7,740 nt of DNA from positions 1-7,740 of the IMG/VR virus record IMGVR_UViG_2698536443_000001; one strand, 5' to 3'. The notes below the pieces were generated by a model that worked only from the letters and a program-made list of their open reading frames with translations, did no database searches and was not told the origin of the DNA. Within the stretch, counting starts at the first letter, position 1. The number at the start of each line of letters is the position of its first letter. This document shows positions 3,414 through 7,740 of the stretch, piece by piece. The position numbers and the translations under genes were made by a program. This DNA is from a virus. Taxonomy: Duplodnaviria > Heunggongvirae > Uroviricota > Caudoviricetes.

Positions 3414-3788
3414 TTACCCCAATTGACCGCTCTTGAGCTTTTGTAATAATGAAGCGTCGAAATAACTATCAACCAAAGCAGAGTTACGTTCTTCCTCTTT
3501 CTTACGAGCAATTTCTTTTATTTCTTCTTGCGTTTTAAATTGCTTGTCGTCCTTAATCATTCGGAATTGGTTAACATTGATTTTATTCAACCATTCACGA
3601 GTCATGTTAGGAGATGTAACGTGCATGTAATACATCGACTGTGCATGTCGCGCATCTTGATATAGGGGGCTTTGTGGTTCAAGATATGTATCGAATATAT
3701 GCAACGCCCAAAATAGCGTAATTGGCATATTATCCATCTCATCTTTACTCAAGCCCCGACGCATCATTTGCCGAAAATAAAAATTCAA
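3414..3788 (-). CDS. Tail assembly chaperone T-segment (-1 frame); probably expressed as a G-T fusion by programmed frameshift rather than from its own start
   Basis: The ORF is in the -1 frame relative to the upstream 102-aa ORF, and its open frame extends upstream to 3812 (bounded by TGA 3815-3813). The track start at 3788 is a TTG with no Shine-Dalgarno. Stop TAA 3416-3414 lies 3 nt before the tape measure ATG. This matches the conserved G/GT arrangement upstream of tape measure genes. Confidence 0.55.
   Translation of the reverse strand: MNFYFRQMMRRGLSKDEMDNMPITLFWALHIFDTYLEPQSPLYQDARHAQSMYYMHVTSPNMTREWLNKINVNQFRMIKDDKQFKTQEEIKEIARKKEEERNSALVDSYFDASLLQKLKSGQLG
3417..3420 (-). promoter_or_regulatory. 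Shine-Dalgarno (GGGG) for the tape measure gene, embedded in the last codons of the upstream ORF
   Basis: Minus-strand TTGGGGTAATTT precedes ATG at 3410. Confidence 0.5.
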
Positions 3789-3796
3789 GAGCGGGT

Positions 3797-3812
3797 TTAC
3801 TTTACCTCGTTT
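3797..3812 (-). other. Candidate -1 programmed ribosomal frameshift window (A-AAG followed by UAA stop)
   Basis: G-frame reads GAA AAC GAG GTA AAG TAA. The -1 frame is open only from 3812, so any shift must occur within 3812..3800. The last sense codon AAG (3802-3800) sits on A-AAG, where tRNA-Lys can re-pair to AAA (3803-3801) while the A site holds a stop codon. Confidence 0.45.
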
Positions 3813-4150: not shown

Positions 4151-4657
4151 TTAAGAGATTTTCAAAGTCTGCTTAGTGCCAGTCTTCTTAATGTTATTGA
4201 GGAAAGCAGCCGGAGGATTGCTTAACCAGTAGTAATGAAAACCACTTTGCATACTGTTATAAGGAACAGTGACAGCAGCACCACCCAAATTAACGGTTAT
4301 ATTCCCCGCTCTACCGTTCTGGAGATATACAGCCATAGTAGGAGTACCACCATTGAATTGACCAACGATAACGCCAATCAGACGCCCTACGCCCACGTTT
4401 TCGGGGTTCTCCATTGACCCTTTACCGCGCATGTCAGTTACTGGATAGTTTGAAGCAGTTACCCCCCAGTTATTCCCCAATGAAGTAGACCATGCAGCAG
4501 TAGCTACAACCGTATCCATACCACGACCACACATCGCGCTCATATTACCAGGAACACCAACTTTTAACGCTTGCATAGCCTCACGCATCCATCGCTTGCC
4601 AGTCACAGAAACAGCCGATGATCCGACCCAGCCGGGCTTATTAACGACATTTGCCAT
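4151..4657 (-). CDS. Hypothetical protein (168 aa), Gly/Asn/Val/Thr-rich, possibly structural; function unknown
   Basis: ATG 4657-4655 preceded by GGAG (4669..4666) with an 8-nt spacer, immediately after a terminator-like hairpin. Stop TAA 4153-4151. No motif I can assign. Confidence 0.6.
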   Translation of the reverse strand: MANVVNKPGWVGSSAVSVTGKRWMREAMQALKVGVPGNMSAMCGRGMDTVVATAAWSTSLGNNWGVTASNYPVTDMRGKGSMENPENVGVGRLIGVIVGQFNGGTPTMAVYLQNGRAGNITVNLGGAAVTVPYNSMQSGFHYYWLSNPPAAFLNNIKKTGTKQTLKIS

Positions 4658-4665
4658 TTTGATTA

Positions 4666-4669
4666 CTCC
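4666..4669 (-). promoter_or_regulatory. Shine-Dalgarno (GGAG) for the 168-aa gene
   Basis: Minus-strand GGAGTAATCAAA precedes ATG at 4657. Confidence 0.55.
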
Positions 4670-4699
4670 AATAAAAAAGCCCCACCATTAAGGCAGGGC
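4670..4699 (-). terminator. Intrinsic-terminator-like hairpin plus U-tract downstream of the tube gene and its extension
   Basis: Minus-strand RNA: GCCCUGCC (4699..4692), loop UUAAU, GGUGGGGC (4686..4679), then UUUUUUAUU (4678..4670). The 8-bp stem uses two G-U wobbles that would be C-A mismatches in a plus-strand RNA, so the structure is specific to the sense transcript. Confidence 0.5.
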
Positions 4700-4705
4700 T
4701 TAAAA

Positions 4706-4825
4706 TTAATTCTTAGCCTTGCGGCCTCGTTTTGCTGTGGCTTTCACCGTAACTTCTTCTACTTCTGGAATCACCACCGCTTCATGTTCCGGCTGTGGTT
4801 CCGGTTCGGGAAGTTCTTCGTTAGT
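4706..4825 (-). other. In-frame 39-codon extension after the TGA stop of the 157-aa gene (candidate readthrough product)
   Basis: After TGA (4828-4826) the same frame continues ACT AAC GAA GAA CTT CCC ... AAG AAT TAA (stop 4708-4706), encoding TNEELPEPEPQPEHEAVVIPEVEEVTVKATAKRGRKAKN. The other two frames hit stops within 2-19 codons. The extension stops 6 nt before the terminator hairpin. Confidence 0.35.
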
Positions 4826-5299
4826 TCATCCGGCAGTGAAGATTTCCTGTTTCAGCGGAGCACCATCAACAGCAAAGGTAAACTCTTTAGTTACCACTTC
4901 TTCATCGCCACCGTTCATAGCAACTTTAGAGATGAAGCCGTTGAAAGCGGTGCGAATACCAGTCTGTTTTGCTGCATCAACATAGTATTCAATCTTAATC
5001 TGAATACGAGTACCGTCTTCGGCAGCTTTAATGAGCTTCTCGTGTACCGCATCACCAGGGATGTAGTTAACGGTCAGAGTCAGATCAGGAACGTTCAGCT
5101 TCCCTACCAGCTTACGGTTATACTGAGAAGAGAAGGATTTAACTTCTACAGTACCGCGCTCGATACCAGTTTCAGGAAAACCAGCACACTCTTTAATTTC
5201 TTCGTAGCTTTCGTGATCGAGAGCGGTGTTAGTGGTATCGGCGTGATAGAACATACTTACCAGACCACCAGTAAAAATATCTTTAAATTGCTGAGTCAT
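4826..5299 (-). CDS. Putative major tail (tube) protein-like protein (157 aa)
   Basis: ATG 5299-5297 preceded by AAGGGG (5312..5307) with a 7-nt spacer. Stop TGA 4828-4826. Size and position (upstream of chaperone pair and tape measure gene), plus hairpins flanking the cistron on both sides, suggest an abundantly expressed structural gene. The tube assignment is inference. Confidence 0.6.
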   Translation of the reverse strand: MTQQFKDIFTGGLVSMFYHADTTNTALDHESYEEIKECAGFPETGIERGTVEVKSFSSQYNRKLVGKLNVPDLTLTVNYIPGDAVHEKLIKAAEDGTRIQIKIEYYVDAAKQTGIRTAFNGFISKVAMNGGDEEVVTKEFTFAVDGAPLKQEIFTAG

Positions 5300-5306
5300 A
5301 GAATTA

Positions 5307-5312
5307 CCCCTT
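5307..5312 (-). promoter_or_regulatory. Shine-Dalgarno (AAGGGG) for the 157-aa gene
   Basis: Minus-strand AAGGGGTAATTCT precedes ATG at 5299. Confidence 0.5.
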
Positions 5313-5330
5313 AATTAAAATTGTTTATAA

Positions 5331-5356: not shown

Positions 5357-7675
5357 TTATTTAGTTGCTTTCAGTTCGGCAATTTCTTTCTGTAATGCTT
5401 CGATCTGTGCTTTATATTTGGCGTCCATTTCCTGCATAGCTTTAATAATCAGAGCATTGACAGCAGAGTTAGAAATAGTCTTGATTGCTTCTGGATTTTC
5501 TGGATCTTCGGTGGATTGAATACCTACTGCTTCCGGCAATACTTCTTCCAGATCCTGAGCAATAATACCTACTTCGCGTTTAATCACTGTGTCATCGGAA
5601 AGAGATTTAACTTTATCGTAGGTGTAGACTTTCAGGGAGTTTACTTTCTCTAATGCGCCGTCCTGTAATTCTTCCTTGTTAATCTTCAAACGGGAGTCAG
5701 AGCGAATGTAAACATCGTTAAAGCTACCGTTACGACCTGCGGTAAAGTCACCAGCAGCGTTAAAGTCAAAGTTAGTATCATGAACATGGAGACGAACAAG
5801 AGCGTTACCGATAGTACCGCTAGGAACGTGCACACCCATTGCTGCAATGTGATATTGACCCCAATGAGTAGCTTTCCAGATGTTATGTGCTGAATCTTTT
5901 GATTGGGGGCAATCAACTTGCAAACCGGAAGCACGGTCACGCCAACTAGACCAGCTACCACCAGAAACGTTACCACGAATCAAACCTTTATCAGACCCGC
6001 CGACGCTACCAGATTCAAGATGAATCATCTTATCCGCAAGTTTCCACGTCTGGGCTTGTTTCTGACCACGGAAGCGAATAACACCAGCATCATCGGAATA
6101 CATCAAACCTAGTTCTAAGCCGTTCGGATCTCTAAACCAGATGTGCTTATTTCCAGTGCGCTTAAATTCAATATCAGCACCGTTAAGCGTGATATTACCG
6201 CCAGTGTGGATTGCTTGAGGCCTAACAGTACCATTGATGGCAAATTCAATAGTAGAAGTACCAGGACCGCCAGCACGTTGGGTATACCAGTGCCAACCAC
6301 TTTCATCCGCGCATTCTAATACTTGCTTACGAGAATCATTACCCCATGCACGAATATTAAAGCTGGATGTAGCTGTATTTTTACCCCAAGTAAACTTACC
6401 ACCGACTTCAAGATCGCCTAAGAAGTTTGCCTTAAGAGCACCAGTACCCATAGCACGCTCTGTGCTAAAATGTCGACCTTGACTGTCTTCTATATACAAA
6501 ACGTTATCACGGGCATTATTACTATCACCCCAATGATTAAATCGAATATAATCACGAGATCCGCTTCTCCCAGCAGAGAAGGTTAAAAACCCTTTCTCGA
6601 TATATGTATCGCCAGCAAATCGAGCAGCACGGCTATCTCTTTCAAGAATTAATGCGCCTTCGTTGCCGTCACCACCTAAAGTAACTTTACCGTTAGTCAA
6701 ATCGTAAATGAACGGTCTGTTTCCATTCCACCCGCCCAATTTATCATTTTCGGCAGTAGAAAGAAGATAAACTTTACCACCATCATTACGCCAGAATGCA
6801 CCATAATTACCGTAGATCATGCGGTAGGCGTCGCTATTCATTGAGATGAATTGAGCGTTAGTATAAACTCGTTTTGTTTTACCTGTTGCAAGTTCGATCT
6901 GTCCGTCGATGTGGTGACGAATAGAAGTACCACCTACATCACTATACCATTCAAAAACGTTAGTATCAGCATTACCATAGCCGATCCAACCTTGACGGGT
7001 AATATCTCCAGTCCGATTATCTTGAAACGCAATATGGTTGGATTGACCAGCAGGACGCCGCAAGGTAATAACATTACTACCGCCACCTAACATCATTCGA
7101 CCAGAAAGAATATTACCTTTATGAGTCCCAGCAATAGAGCTACTAGATTCAACGGTTAGAATCTCCTGAGCATCGGTACTACCCGTGGCGAGTCGATAAC
7201 TGGAACCTTGAACCGTCTCATGCCAGATCATTTCATTATAGTTACTACGGAATTTACGAATATATTTCCGTCCAGTACCTCTATCATTGCTTAGATGAAC
7301 AATGTCATAGCTGTTTTGTGTATTGTCGTCAAAACTCAACACACCACGTTTATTTTCGGTATTAAAAAGAGTTACGTTGCGACCACCGATAACACCAACG
7401 GAAGGTTTAATTAACGTGGCTTCCGGCGTATCATAAACCGTCAAACTTACATAAACAGATTTCCCATATTCGACAATAACGTTATCGGTATAACGCTGAT
7501 ATTTCACGTAGATATCATAGTTATCACCGGAAGTATTGACAGCAAATACCTCAAAATCCTTGTTTGTATTTCTACGGTATGCAATTACGTTAAGACCTTT
7601 AGGTCTATCGTTACCACTACGCAGAAGAATTTCTACTACGTCAACCTGTGGATTTGCCCCTATATTTCCAGACAT
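5357..7675 (-). CDS. Tail fiber / tailspike-like protein (772 aa) with C-terminal intramolecular chaperone auto-processing domain (peptidase S74-like)
   Basis: C-terminal region contains YIRSDSRLKINKEEL... followed by a coiled-coil tail (AKYKAQIEALQKEIAELKATK). The S...K spacing matches the Ser-Lys dyad motif of endosialidase-type C-terminal chaperone domains. The large Gly/Asn/Thr/Ser-rich central region is typical of beta-structured fibers. ATG 7675-7673, stop TAA 5359-5357. Confidence 0.8.
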   Translation of the reverse strand: MSGNIGANPQVDVVEILLRSGNDRPKGLNVIAYRRNTNKDFEVFAVNTSGDNYDIYVKYQRYTDNVIVEYGKSVYVSLTVYDTPEATLIKPSVGVIGGRNVTLFNTENKRGVLSFDDNTQNSYDIVHLSNDRGTGRKYIRKFRSNYNEMIWHETVQGSSYRLATGSTDAQEILTVESSSSIAGTHKGNILSGRMMLGGGSNVITLRRPAGQSNHIAFQDNRTGDITRQGWIGYGNADTNVFEWYSDVGGTSIRHHIDGQIELATGKTKRVYTNAQFISMNSDAYRMIYGNYGAFWRNDGGKVYLLSTAENDKLGGWNGNRPFIYDLTNGKVTLGGDGNEGALILERDSRAARFAGDTYIEKGFLTFSAGRSGSRDYIRFNHWGDSNNARDNVLYIEDSQGRHFSTERAMGTGALKANFLGDLEVGGKFTWGKNTATSSFNIRAWGNDSRKQVLECADESGWHWYTQRAGGPGTSTIEFAINGTVRPQAIHTGGNITLNGADIEFKRTGNKHIWFRDPNGLELGLMYSDDAGVIRFRGQKQAQTWKLADKMIHLESGSVGGSDKGLIRGNVSGGSWSSWRDRASGLQVDCPQSKDSAHNIWKATHWGQYHIAAMGVHVPSGTIGNALVRLHVHDTNFDFNAAGDFTAGRNGSFNDVYIRSDSRLKINKEELQDGALEKVNSLKVYTYDKVKSLSDDTVIKREVGIIAQDLEEVLPEAVGIQSTEDPENPEAIKTISNSAVNALIIKAMQEMDAKYKAQIEALQKEIAELKATK
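5360..5701 (-). other. Intramolecular chaperone (S74-like) domain-coding region of the fiber gene; predicted autocleavage motif SDSRLK at 5684..5701
   Basis: Residues about 659-772. Codons TCT GAC TCC CGT TTG AAG (5701..5684) encode S-D-S-R-L-K. Confidence 0.6.
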
Positions 7676-7740
7676 CTGTTATCACTTAACCCATTACAAG
7701 CCCGCTGCCGCAGATATTCCCGTGGCGAGCGATAACCCAG

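What the first reader, a model, noticed from the sequence alone, without database searches (positions are those of the whole stretch)
4706..4828. Uniquely open 39-codon in-frame extension after the TGA stop of the tube-like gene, ending just before a terminator
Following the TGA the same frame stays open for 39 codons, while both other frames close quickly. It encodes an acidic Pro/Glu-rich linker (EELPEPEPQPEHE...EVEEV) followed by a strongly basic tail (KATAKRGRKAKN), and the frame closes 6 nt before the terminator hairpin. The stop context is UGA-A. This is consistent with programmed stop-codon readthrough producing a minor, C-terminally extended form of an abundant structural protein, analogous to extended major tail or capsid proteins made by recoding in other phages. 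The alternative is a recent nonsense mutation in a decaying prophage.
Basis: partly seen in the sequence, partly recalled or inferred. Interest (0 to 1): 0.7.

Follow-up and report, generated by a model that had tools for sequence, protein, structure and literature searches.

The report
Leaky-stop extension of a phage tail-tube protein
In a family of E. coli prophages the tail-tube gene ends in a leak-prone TGA stop followed by a conserved in-frame 33-41-codon tail, so a few tube subunits are probably made longer by stop-codon readthrough, which I found no report of for a tailed-phage tail-tube gene.

Summary
On the minus strand a lambda-like tail-tube gene (5299..4829) ends in TGA-A. Thirty-nine in-frame sense codons follow, then TAA 4 nt before an intrinsic terminator.

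One sequence alone is weak evidence (chance about 0.08). The comparison is not. All 62 related sequences (27 distinct extension haplotypes) from E. coli prophages, viral contigs and metagenomes keep TGA ACT and an open extension of 33, 36, 39, 40 or 41 codons. This holds at tube dS about 1, in three downstream gene contexts and with two terminator types.

Frame 0 shows purifying selection (dN/dS 0.10-0.50); shifted frames do not. All 13 tube homologues at 73% identity or less end in TAA next to the terminator, with no extension. No continuous version exists; the one "198-aa" database protein is a code-4 gene-calling artefact.

No SECIS, downstream RNA structure, frameshift route or conserved internal start was found. 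The best reading is low-level UGA readthrough, probably by tRNA-Trp, giving a minor 197-aa subunit. Its tail is a disordered acidic/proline linker with a basic tip, at the point where lambda gpV carries its outward Ig-like domain.

Translation and function are not demonstrated. This copy's tail-fibre gene is cut by IS2.

The parts
4829..5299 (-). Tail-tube (major tail) protein ORF, 157 aa, 17.3 kDa, lambda gpV N-domain fold
   Evidence: Pfam PF16460 Phage_TTP_11 at 28.1 bits, just under the 28.4 cut-off. The AlphaFold2 model core has pLDDT 80-92. Foldseek top hits are phage YDC107 and lambda gpV tail tubes, E 2e-7 to 4e-7, prob 1.00. Synteny is fibre, tube, (gp38-like), TAC, TMP.
4825..4828 (-). 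Leaky stop signal UGA-A (TGA at 4828..4826, +4 A at 4825)
   Evidence: TGA ACT is invariant in 62 of 62 sequences, while the preceding codon varies (GGA, GGC, GGT, GCT and, in L052, a Ser codon). All 13 tube homologues without an extension use TAA. Seven of the 9 stops in the window are TAA. UGA followed by A is reported as especially prone to misreading by tRNA-Trp in E. coli (PMC5289835, citing Engelberg-Kulka 1981).
4742..4825 (-). Readthrough extension, part 1: acidic Pro/Glu-rich linker (28 codons, TNEELPEPEPQPEHEAVVIPEVEEVTVK), containing the conserved VIPE-x-E-x-V motif
   Evidence: Open in frame 0 in all 27 haplotypes. All indels fall here and all are multiples of 3. Synonymous excess: 12 synonymous against 16 amino-acid variants, with 22% synonymous sites, p = 0.012. 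Predicted disordered, pLDDT below 50.
4709..4741 (-). Readthrough extension, part 2: basic C-terminal tip (ATAKRGRKAKN), with conserved core TAKR-[GS]-RK
   Evidence: TAKRGRK is kept between the window and L023 through 5 synonymous and 0 replacement changes: ACA GCA AAA CGA GGC CGC AAG against ACC GCC AAA CGA GGT CGT AAA. pI 12.0. The C-terminal part of the extension (alignment columns 21-42) shows synonymous excess, p = 0.028.
4706..4708 (-). True end of the extended ORF (TAA)
   Evidence: It lies 4-11 nt before the terminator hairpin, within the 4-24 nt spacing seen across the family including the extension-less homologues. The TGA instead lies more than 100 nt upstream.
4667..4701 (-). Intrinsic terminator: hairpin 4701..4677 plus T-run
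   Evidence: 10 pairs, 6 G-C, loop 5, then TTTTTTATT. It is the only stable element in the centroid fold. It is present after the extension in all relatives, in two sequence types.

Best explanation
The tail-tube gene of this E. coli siphovirus-type prophage family is a two-product gene. Most ribosomes terminate at UGA and make the 157-aa tube subunit.

A small fraction probably read UGA-A with a near-cognate tRNA, most likely tRNA-Trp. They continue for 33-41 codons to a TAA just before the terminator. In this window that gives a 197-aa, 21.8-kDa subunit.

The added segment is predicted to be disordered. It has an acidic, proline-rich spacer, a conserved VIPE-x-E-x-V motif and a basic TAKR-x-RK tip. 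It starts at the end of the tube domain, the point where lambda gpV carries its outward-facing Ig-like domain. A few subunits per tail would therefore carry a flexible external tether.

Shown here: the anatomy, the family-wide conservation, the coding-type selection in frame 0, the link between TGA and presence of the extension, and the absence of other recoding signals.

Inferred: that readthrough occurs, its level (my assumption is a few percent at most, so a handful of the roughly 175 subunits of a tail sized by a 781-aa tape measure), the inserted residue, and the role of the tether. Candidate roles are weak electrostatic adhesion to the cell surface, or a contact made during tail assembly or stabilisation.
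For: 1. TGA ACT followed by an open frame of 33, 36, 39, 40 or 41 codons is found in 62 of 62 sequences (27 extension haplotypes). Sources are complete E. coli genomes, Logan/NCBI/ENA contigs, IMG/VR and metagenomes.
2. Tube dS between clades is 1.1-1.3 and extension dS is 0.7-0.9, so the arrangement is old.
3. Extension dN/dS is 0.10-0.50, against 0.05-0.16 for the tube. Frame 0 pN/pS is 0.15-0.76 (Fisher p = 1.5e-4 for L023 against L030, 0.007 for window against L023). Frames +1 and +2 give 0.7-2.3, not significant. Variable sites by codon position are 15/11/23. Column-wise there are 24 synonymous against 32 amino-acid variants, with 24% expected, p = 0.0015. The excess holds separately in the linker and in the C-terminal part of the extension (alignment columns 21-42).
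4. At least 57 substitution events produced no in-frame stop (chance 0.1-0.18). I count at least 4 separate indel events from the alignments, and all lengths are multiples of 3.
5. The extension travels with the tube gene, not with its neighbours. It is present with the gp38-like gene, with a 422-aa gene, and directly before the TAC. It occurs with two terminator types.
6. All 13 homologues at 73% identity or less use TAA, then the terminator, with no extension.
7. The final TAA, not the TGA, sits at the family's usual stop-to-terminator distance.
8. UGA is the leakiest stop in E. coli, and a +4 A favours tRNA-Trp misreading (PMC11126739; PMC5289835).
9. The C-terminus of this fold is a known decoration site. 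The model matches the lambda gpV N-domain. The gpV, T5 pb6 and YSD1 tail proteins carry outward C-terminal Ig-like domains, and SPP1 gp17.1* is made by frameshift (PMC8718954). Remote homologues fuse this tube domain to a further ~100 residues (P0040, 252 aa) or to 700-1500-aa C-terminal regions.
Against: - There is no direct evidence of translation: no proteomics, Ribo-seq or reporter data.
- No isolated phage carries the feature. The best phage hit is only 44% identical.
- No stimulatory RNA structure follows the UGA (z = -0.42), so the readthrough level may be very low. That is especially likely in natural isolates, whose RF2 I recall being more active than K-12's.
- The extension evolves 2-5 times faster at replacement sites than the tube, and every nucleotide haplotype encodes a different peptide.
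- One indel class lies in a CCNGAA hexamer repeat, which slips in-frame by itself.
- All sequences belong to one recombining E. coli prophage lineage, so the number of independent events is modest.
- Invariance of TGA rather than TAA, and of ACT, is only weakly informative. In the tube, 31-37% of synonymous sites are also invariant.
- The function of the tail is unknown.
Confidence: 0.73

Rival explanations
1. Tolerated error rather than programmed product. The very abundant tube mRNA ends in a naturally leaky UGA. The downstream in-frame sequence is selected only to be harmless (soluble, disordered, ending before the terminator). The extended protein has no role of its own.
For: The extension is predicted disordered, evolves faster than the tube, and has no stimulatory RNA structure. 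Readthrough of UGA is common background in E. coli (PMC11126739).
Against: Error mitigation is achieved far more simply by TGA to TAA, one transition, which is the state in every sister clade. Instead TGA-A and more than 100 nt of ORF are kept in 62 of 62 sequences. Specific motifs (VIPE, TAKR-x-RK) are held through synonymous changes.
Confidence: 0.09
2. RNA- or DNA-level function. The about 120 nt between the tube stop and the terminator would be a conserved 3'UTR, for example a 3'-end-derived small RNA or a spacer, and its openness in frame 0 would be incidental.
For: It is the 3' end of an abundant transcript and ends in a strong terminator with a U-tail, which is typical sRNA anatomy. A single open frame of 39 codons is not rare (0.076).
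Against: The substitution pattern is codon-periodic and synonymous-biased in frame 0 only. All length variants are multiples of 3. There is no significant fold apart from the terminator and no Rfam match above noise. The sequence varies most where an RNA element would need conservation.
Confidence: 0.09
3. Dead remnant: a nonsense mutation in a formerly longer tube gene of a decaying prophage, with the downstream part not yet eroded.
For: This copy is damaged. IS2 truncates its tail-fibre gene. In strain PI7 the terminase gene is flagged as frameshifted.
Against: The same TGA is shared by 62 sequences whose tube genes differ at dS up to 1.3, and the extension has itself accumulated dS of 0.7-0.9. 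There is no stop, no frameshift, and dN/dS is below 1. No homologue with a sense codon at that position exists among the 38 clusters found at 90% identity or the phmmer hits listed from 1.84 billion representatives.
Confidence: 0.04
4. Separate small peptide started inside the extension, for example at the GTG of VIPE, or by reinitiation after the UGA.
For: A near-invariant in-frame GTG precedes ATT CCA GAA.
Against: By inspection of the sequence I see no Shine-Dalgarno-like sequence upstream of it. The GTG is GGG in L057. The region between the TGA and this GTG still keeps frame, lacks stops and shows synonymous excess (p = 0.012), which an independent ORF would not require. There is no ATG, GTG or TTG adjacent to the TGA.
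Confidence: 0.03
5. Other recoding of UGA: selenocysteine insertion, a phage- or host-wide TGA reassignment or suppressor tRNA, or ribosome hopping over the stop.
For: A metagenome gene caller translated the TGA as W (P0004).
Against: The P0004 contig has a plain TGA; the W comes from calling with an alternative genetic code. No hairpin or SECIS-like element follows the UGA, and that stretch carries indels. All other genes in the window are intact under table 11 and 7 of 9 end in TAA. No tRNA is found in the window or annotated in a whole prophage. The take-off codon is not conserved (GGA, GGC, GGT, GCT) and I found no matching in-frame landing site (and the sequence).
Confidence: 0.02

Closest known systems
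Q-beta coat / A1 (readthrough) protein of the ssRNA coliphage Q-beta
   Same: An abundant structural protein ends in a leaky UGA. tRNA-Trp readthrough gives a minor, C-terminally extended structural subunit in E. coli. From memory, the Q-beta context is also UGA-AC. A1 is cited as the classic case in PMC7026636 and PMC5289835.
   Different: Q-beta is an RNA phage and the protein is a capsid protein. Its extension is about 200 aa, folded, and essential for infectivity. Here the genome is a dsDNA tailed prophage, the protein is the tail tube, and the extension is 33-41 aa, predicted disordered, and of unknown necessity.
Frameshift-extended major tail proteins: SPP1 gp17.1*, and Listeria phages A118, A500 and PSA Tsh
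   Same: One tail-tube gene gives a major short form and a minor form with a C-terminal addition on the outside of the tube, at a ratio fixed by recoding (PMC8718954; PMC5009743).
   Different: Those use +1 frameshifting into another frame; in SPP1 the addition is a folded FN3 (Ig-fold) domain and the short:long ratio is about 3:1. Here the extension is in the same frame behind a stop codon, is short and unstructured, and is probably far rarer.
Lambda gpV (and T5 pb6, YSD1 tail protein): tube domain plus directly fused C-terminal Ig-like domain
   Same: The tube fold is the same (Foldseek E 3e-7). The decoration starts at the same point, which is residue 157 in gpV.
   Different: In those proteins the decoration is on every subunit, is a folded Big_2 or Big_1 domain, and involves no recoding. 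Sequence identity to gpV is only 14-15%.
C-arm of 80alpha gp53 and SPP1 gp17.1
   Same: A short, non-globular C-terminal extension of a siphophage tube protein that lies on the outer sheet of the neighbouring ring. The conserved hydrophobic VIPE-x-E-x-V segment could act similarly. Directly encoded short tails with a VIPE-like motif or a basic end exist in the Edwardsiella, Proteus and Salmonella homologues.
   Different: The C-arm is constitutive and required for polymerisation. Here it would be present on only a few subunits. The similarity to the Edwardsiella tail is short and not statistically established.

Membership tests
Programmed stop-codon readthrough (recoding) | ORF continues in the same frame after the stop | tested here: met
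   39 codons in the window; 33-41 codons in 62 of 62 relatives.
Programmed stop-codon readthrough (recoding) | Leak-prone stop and context, conserved as such | tested here: met
   UGA-A (TGA ACT) is invariant. Sister clades without an extension use TAA. The effect of the context is taken from the literature, not measured.
Programmed stop-codon readthrough (recoding) | Protein-coding evolutionary signature downstream of the stop | tested here: met
   dN/dS 0.10-0.50. The signal is specific to frame 0. All indels are in-frame and there are no stops.
Programmed stop-codon readthrough (recoding) | Extended product detected, and efficiency above background | not testable with these tools
   Needs mass spectrometry, western blot, Ribo-seq or a reporter. 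No isolated phage with this gene is in the phage collection.
Programmed stop-codon readthrough (recoding) | Stimulatory 3' RNA structure (present in many eukaryotic-virus cases; I am not aware of a requirement for one in bacteria) | tested here: not met
   The 75 nt from just upstream of the UGA into the extension (window 4834..4760) fold no better than shuffles (z = -0.42). There is no Rfam match.
Lambda-like tail tube protein (Pfam PF16460 / gpV N-domain fold) | Profile match at the curated threshold | tested here: inconclusive
   28.1 bits against a cut-off of 28.4, E = 1.9e-6. A profile search of PDB sequences found nothing.
Lambda-like tail tube protein (Pfam PF16460 / gpV N-domain fold) | Tube-protein fold | tested here: met
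   AlphaFold2 core pLDDT 80-92. Foldseek hits YDC107, lambda gpV, NF5 and 80alpha tubes at E 2e-7 to 7e-6, prob 1.00.
Lambda-like tail tube protein (Pfam PF16460 / gpV N-domain fold) | Position in the tail module, upstream of TAC and the tape measure | tested here: met
Frameshift-generated extended major tail protein (SPP1 gp17.1*, Listeria Tsh) | Extension encoded in the +1 or -1 frame and reached at a slippery site | tested here: not met
   The extension is in frame 0. The +1 and +2 frames hold 3 stops each.
Frameshift-generated extended major tail protein (SPP1 gp17.1*, Listeria Tsh) | Added folded Ig-like or FN3 domain | tested here: not met
   The addition is 39 aa, with pLDDT below 50 and no secondary structure.
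Selenocysteine insertion | SECIS hairpin immediately 3' of the UGA | tested here: not met
   The region carries indels among relatives.
Stop-codon-reassigned phage (TGA read as sense genome-wide) | In-frame TGA scattered through late genes, plus a suppressor tRNA | tested here: not met
   All other tail genes are intact under table 11 and 7 of 9 stops are TAA. No tRNA is present.

The most novel reading that the evidence does not exclude
The opal readthrough may be a tunable device with two outputs. First, it would set how many tube subunits per virion carry an external acidic-basic tether. That number would shift with RF2/tRNA-Trp competition, temperature and nutrient state. Second, ribosomes that read through stop only 4 nt before the terminator hairpin and would occlude its 5' arm. 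That could couple translational leakiness to transcription of the downstream gp38-like adhesin, chaperone and tape-measure genes. It would be an attenuation-like link between decoding fidelity and tail-gene stoichiometry.
Probability: 0.08. Interest if true: 0.8.

Novelty: new variant of a known kind. Interest (0 to 1): 0.62.

Why it matters
Recoding that gives a minor, extended tail or capsid subunit is well known in tailed phages, but by frameshifting. Stop-codon readthrough as a structural-gene strategy is textbook for the RNA phage Q-beta.

I found no report of readthrough for a tail-tube gene of a dsDNA tailed phage. That rests on six full-text searches of the open-access library, which do not cover subscription journals.

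If confirmed, four things follow:
- Readthrough would be a third route, besides direct fusion and frameshifting, for decorating siphophage tails.
- A short disordered tether, rather than an Ig-like domain, could be the selected cargo.
- Annotation pipelines systematically miss such products. Every RefSeq record here stops the gene at the TGA.
- It would give a natural, conserved E. coli context for studying UGA-A leakiness, and an easily engineered site for displaying peptides on a few tube subunits.

Tried and rejected
- **Phage collection.** Megablast of the region found nothing. tblastn found only a 44% homologue. So there is no isolated phage and no proteomic literature to lean on.
- **P0004.** This 198-aa protein with W at the stop looked like a natural continuous version. 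Its contig has TGA and the gene does not translate to the protein under table 11, so it is a gene-caller artefact.
- **Genome-contig scan.** The scan with the family alignment returned nothing usable.
- **Structure prediction.** The single-sequence AlphaFold2 run was useless (pLDDT 37). It was repeated with a 35-sequence alignment.
- **PDB sequence search.** The profile search was empty; only the fold search worked.
- **SECIS or stimulatory structure.** None was found.
- **Hopping or bypass.** Rejected, because the last sense codon varies and GGA landing sites are out of frame (and the sequence).
- **Antisense ORFs** (+ strand 4719..4985 and 4784..5314). These are mechanical. The antisense frames gain stops in several haplotypes.
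- **Stop and context invariance as a test.** TGA-rather-than-TAA and ACT invariance is weak, because 31-37% of tube synonymous sites are also invariant.
- **Tail homology to Edwardsiella.** BLASTP carries the alignment through P..H..VIPE, but over too few residues to be conclusive.
- **AT-hook reading of KRGRK.** Considered from memory and not adopted, because the GRP core is absent.
Full report
**1. What is in the window**

The feature is on the minus strand.

- An ORF at 5299..4829 encodes a 157-aa protein.
- Its stop is TGA (4828..4826) and the next codon is ACT, so the context is UGA-A.
- The same frame then stays open for 39 codons (4825..4709): TNEELPEPEPQPEHEAVVIPEVEEVTVKATAKRGRKAKN.
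- It closes with TAA (4708..4706).
- A terminator-like hairpin (4701..4677; 10 pairs, 6 G-C) with a T-run follows 4 nt later.
- The other two sense frames hold 3 stops each in this stretch.
- The first 28 residues are acidic and Pro-rich (pI 4.05). The last 11 are strongly basic (pI 12.0).

By itself, 39 open codons after a stop has a chance probability of about 0.076 from base composition, so the single sequence proves little.

**2. What the gene is**

The 157-aa protein is a tail-tube protein.

- It scores just under the Pfam threshold for the lambda-like tail-tube family PF16460 (28.1 bits against 28.4).
- An AlphaFold2 model built on 35 homologues has a confident core (pLDDT 80-92). Two regions are disordered: the long beta2-beta3 loop, and everything after residue 158.
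- Foldseek places the model with the tail tubes of phage YDC107, lambda gpV, NF5 and 80alpha (E 2e-7 to 7e-6, probability 1.00).

The neighbourhood is a siphovirus tail module. In order it holds:

- a tail fibre with a gp34-type trimerisation domain and an S74 chaperone domain;
- the tube gene;
- a gp38-N-like gene;
- a tail assembly chaperone, with a second ORF in the -1 frame;
- a 781-aa protein in the tape-measure position (assigned by size and position; Pfam gave no significant family match);
- a distal-tail-like protein.

In complete genomes the element is a prophage of about 35 kb. It is inserted in hicB next to ydcR, has a serine recombinase, and has no annotated tRNA.

**3. Comparative test**

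I collected related loci from five sources:

- twenty complete E. coli genomes holding the whole region at 87-97% DNA identity, of which I read 19 loci;
- contigs carrying the protein clusters P0003, P0004, P0006 and P0007;
- 23 IMG/VR viral contigs;
- 9 metagenome contigs.

Every sequence whose tube protein is at least 82% identical to the window's has the same arrangement: 62 of 62 carry TGA ACT and an open in-frame extension.

- There are 27 distinct extension haplotypes.
- They fall into five length classes (33, 36, 39, 40, 41 codons), all multiples of three.
- No haplotype has an internal stop or frameshift.
- The codon before the TGA varies (GGA, GGC, GGT, GCT and, in L052, a Ser codon), while TGA ACT never does.
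- The extension stays with the tube gene across three downstream contexts. It is found before the gp38-like gene, before a 422-aa gene (L023-L028), and directly before the chaperone (L019).
- It occurs with two unrelated terminator sequences.

By contrast, all 13 sequences with tube homologues at 73% identity or less end in TAA. These come from other E. coli prophages, one metagenome contig, Salmonella, Edwardsiella and Proteus. Their TAA is followed within 7-24 nt by the terminator, with no extension.

The extension's TAA lies 4-11 nt from the hairpin, which is within the usual spacing of the family. The TGA lies more than 100 nt upstream. The extended ORF therefore has the normal gene-end geometry, and the TGA behaves as an internal stop.

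**4. Is the extension evolving as coding sequence?**

- Tube genes of the different clades differ at dS 1.1-1.3. The extension itself shows dS 0.7-0.9, so the arrangement is old.
- Nei-Gojobori dN/dS in the extension is 0.10-0.50, against 0.05-0.16 in the tube.
- A frame control is clean. In frame 0, pN/pS is 0.15-0.76 (Fisher p = 1.5e-4 for L023 against L030; 0.007 for window against L023). The same columns read in frames +1 and +2 give 0.7-2.3, with no significance.
- Variable sites by codon position number 15, 11 and 23.
- Counting variants per column over all 27 haplotypes gives 24 synonymous against 32 amino-acid variants, where 24% synonymous is expected (p = 0.0015).
- The excess holds separately for the linker (p = 0.012) and for the C-terminal part of the extension, alignment columns 21-42 (p = 0.028).
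- The block TAKRGRK is kept between the window and L023 through five synonymous and no replacement changes.
- At least 57 substitution events occurred without creating a stop (chance 0.1-0.18). I count at least four separate indel events from the alignments, and all lengths are multiples of three.

The caveats are these.

- The sequences belong to one recombining lineage, in which tube and extension variants reassort.
- One indel class lies in a hexamer repeat that slips in-frame by itself.
- Invariance of TGA and ACT is only mildly informative, because 31-37% of tube synonymous sites are also invariant.

**5. Is there a continuous version?**

No. Among the 38 protein clusters found at 90% identity, only P0004 (198 aa) appeared continuous, with W at the stop position. 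Its contig carries TGA and does not translate to that protein under table 11. The W comes from gene calling with an alternative code.

A full phmmer scan of 1.84 billion representatives with the 198-aa sequence found no relative whose match runs through the extension, apart from one long unrelated overlap.

**6. Mechanism**

The extension is in frame 0, so frameshifting is not a route.

- *Selenocysteine or structure-stimulated readthrough.* Neither has support. The 75 nt from just upstream of the UGA into the extension (window 4834..4760) fold no better than shuffles (z = -0.42). Rfam gives only noise. This stretch carries indels among relatives.
- *Genome-wide TGA reassignment or a suppressor tRNA.* These are excluded. 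The other tail genes are intact under table 11 and mostly end in TAA. No tRNA is present.
- *Hopping.* This is unlikely, because the take-off codon is not conserved.
- *An internal start at the GTG of VIPE.* This is unlikely for three reasons. I see no SD-like sequence upstream in the sequence. The GTG is GGG in one haplotype. The upstream linker is itself frame-constrained.

What remains is context-dependent leakiness. UGA is the most error-prone stop in E. coli (PMC11126739). UGA followed by A is reported to be particularly prone to misreading by tRNA-Trp (PMC5289835, citing Engelberg-Kulka 1981).

A highly expressed structural gene would be expected to use TAA. Its sister clades do, and so do 7 of the 9 genes in this window.

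I therefore infer low-level readthrough giving a 197-aa, 21.8-kDa subunit. My assumption is a few percent at most.

A 781-aa tape measure implies a tail of roughly 29 rings, or about 175 subunits. This is my estimate from 1.5 Å per residue and about 4 nm per ring. A handful of long subunits per virion would result. None of this has been measured.

**7. What the extension might do**

- In lambda gpV the tube domain ends at residue 156, and an Ig-like domain then projects to the outside.
- The T5 pb6 and YSD1 tail proteins are similar.
- SPP1 makes gp17.1* with an FN3 domain by frameshifting.
- 80alpha and SPP1 have a short C-arm that lies on the neighbouring ring (PMC8718954).
- Remote homologues of the present tube domain are fused to a further ~100 residues that I read as Ig-like (P0040, 252 aa; Pfam found no family) or to 700-1500-aa fibre-like regions ending in PF25670.

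The C-terminus of this fold is therefore an established external attachment point.

Salmonella, Edwardsiella and Proteus homologues carry short, directly encoded tails ending in RK or KEK. The Edwardsiella tail contains VIPE. This hints that the tail is an old element that became sub-stoichiometric behind a UGA in the E. coli clade. The similarity is too short to establish that.

The function is open. Weak electrostatic adhesion to the cell envelope through the basic tip is possible. So is a C-arm-like or assembly contact through the VIPE-x-E-x-V segment.

**8. Comparison with known systems**

In working principle the closest system is Q-beta A1: UGA readthrough of an abundant structural protein in E. 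coli. In biological role the closest are the frameshift-extended major tail proteins of SPP1 and the Listeria phages (PMC5009743; PMC8718954).

This case fails the defining features of the latter group, because there is no frameshift and no folded Ig-like domain. It differs from Q-beta in virus type, protein and cargo.

Six full-text searches found no report of stop-codon readthrough in a tail-tube gene of a tailed phage. The library omits most subscription journals, so this is absence of evidence.

I rate it a new variant of a known kind.

**9. State of this copy**

Window 7670-7740 is the end of an IS2 element (100% identity; 18,456 places in E. coli genomes). The 772-aa fibre ORF corresponds to residues 436-1200 of the intact 1201-aa fibre of strain PI7.

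This particular prophage is therefore probably defective. That does not affect the conclusion, which rests on the family.

**10. Verdict**

My confidence is about 0.73 that the extension is a selected, translated readthrough product.

The main residual alternatives are tolerated error without function (0.09) and an RNA-level role (0.09). Direct detection of the long form is the decisive missing step.

Noticed in passing
window 7670-7740 and ORF 7675..5357: The upstream end of the window is the terminus of an IS2 element (100% identical, multi-copy in E. coli). The apparent 772-aa tail-fibre ORF matches only residues 436-1200 of the 1201-aa fibre of related prophages. The fibre gene of this copy is therefore truncated by IS2 and the prophage is probably defective.
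   Followed up: yes
window 4151-4657 (minus strand); L019, L023-L028, L039: A 168-aa gene matching only the N-terminal domain of the T-even adhesin gp38 (PF21721, E 3.6e-15) sits in a variable slot between the tube terminator and the chaperone gene. It is absent in L019 and replaced by a 422-aa gene in L023-L028. In Edwardsiella a full gp38 lies before the tube instead. This is moron-like behaviour. No promoter-like site was found between 4000 and 5500.
   Followed up: partly
window 3797-3812 (minus strand), end of the 102-aa chaperone ORF: The next ORF (3788..3414) is in the -1 frame, and that frame is open from 3812. It overlaps ...GAG GTA AAG TAA. There is no canonical X XXY YYZ heptamer. 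An A_AAG slip next to the TAA stop could give the usual G/GT-type chaperone fusion. Gene callers place the start of the second ORF inconsistently (77-124 aa across).
   Followed up: partly
L022 (ENA ERZ27280761 k141_243218), protein P0004: A public protein database entry of 198 aa shows W where the DNA has TGA. The short contig was evidently called with a TGA=Trp code. Such entries can mimic natural continuous versions of readthrough genes.
   Followed up: yes
P0051-P0164, e.g. P0073 and P0051: Dozens of remote homologues (25-34% identity) carry this tube domain as the first ~140 residues of 700-1500-aa proteins. Their remainder has fibre-like repeats, and in the two I scanned (P0051, P0073) it ends in a PF25670 'phage tail protein C-terminal domain'. 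A tail-tube domain fused to a long fibre is unusual and was not pursued.
   Followed up: no
L036-L041; proteins P0011-P0013, P0023-P0025, P0034: Salmonella, Providencia, Edwardsiella and Proteus homologues encode short constitutive C-terminal tails ending in basic residues (GRK, LRK, ARK, ARSK, KEK). The Edwardsiella tail contains VIPE, like the E. coli extension. This may be an ancestral form of the tail.
   Followed up: partly
L023 vs L064; L017 vs L018 vs L052: Tube-end variants and extension variants occur in different combinations. For example, the tube end VPQKIFTVGG occurs with both the TFEEQPQPI-type and the TNEELPLIEPEP-type extension. This indicates recombination within or next to the extension that always preserves the frame.
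   Followed up: partly
L042 (E. coli PI7 prophage), locus 8393-10419: In strain PI7 the prophage terminase large-subunit gene is annotated as frameshifted with an internal stop. Several copies of this prophage family may therefore be defective.
   Followed up: no
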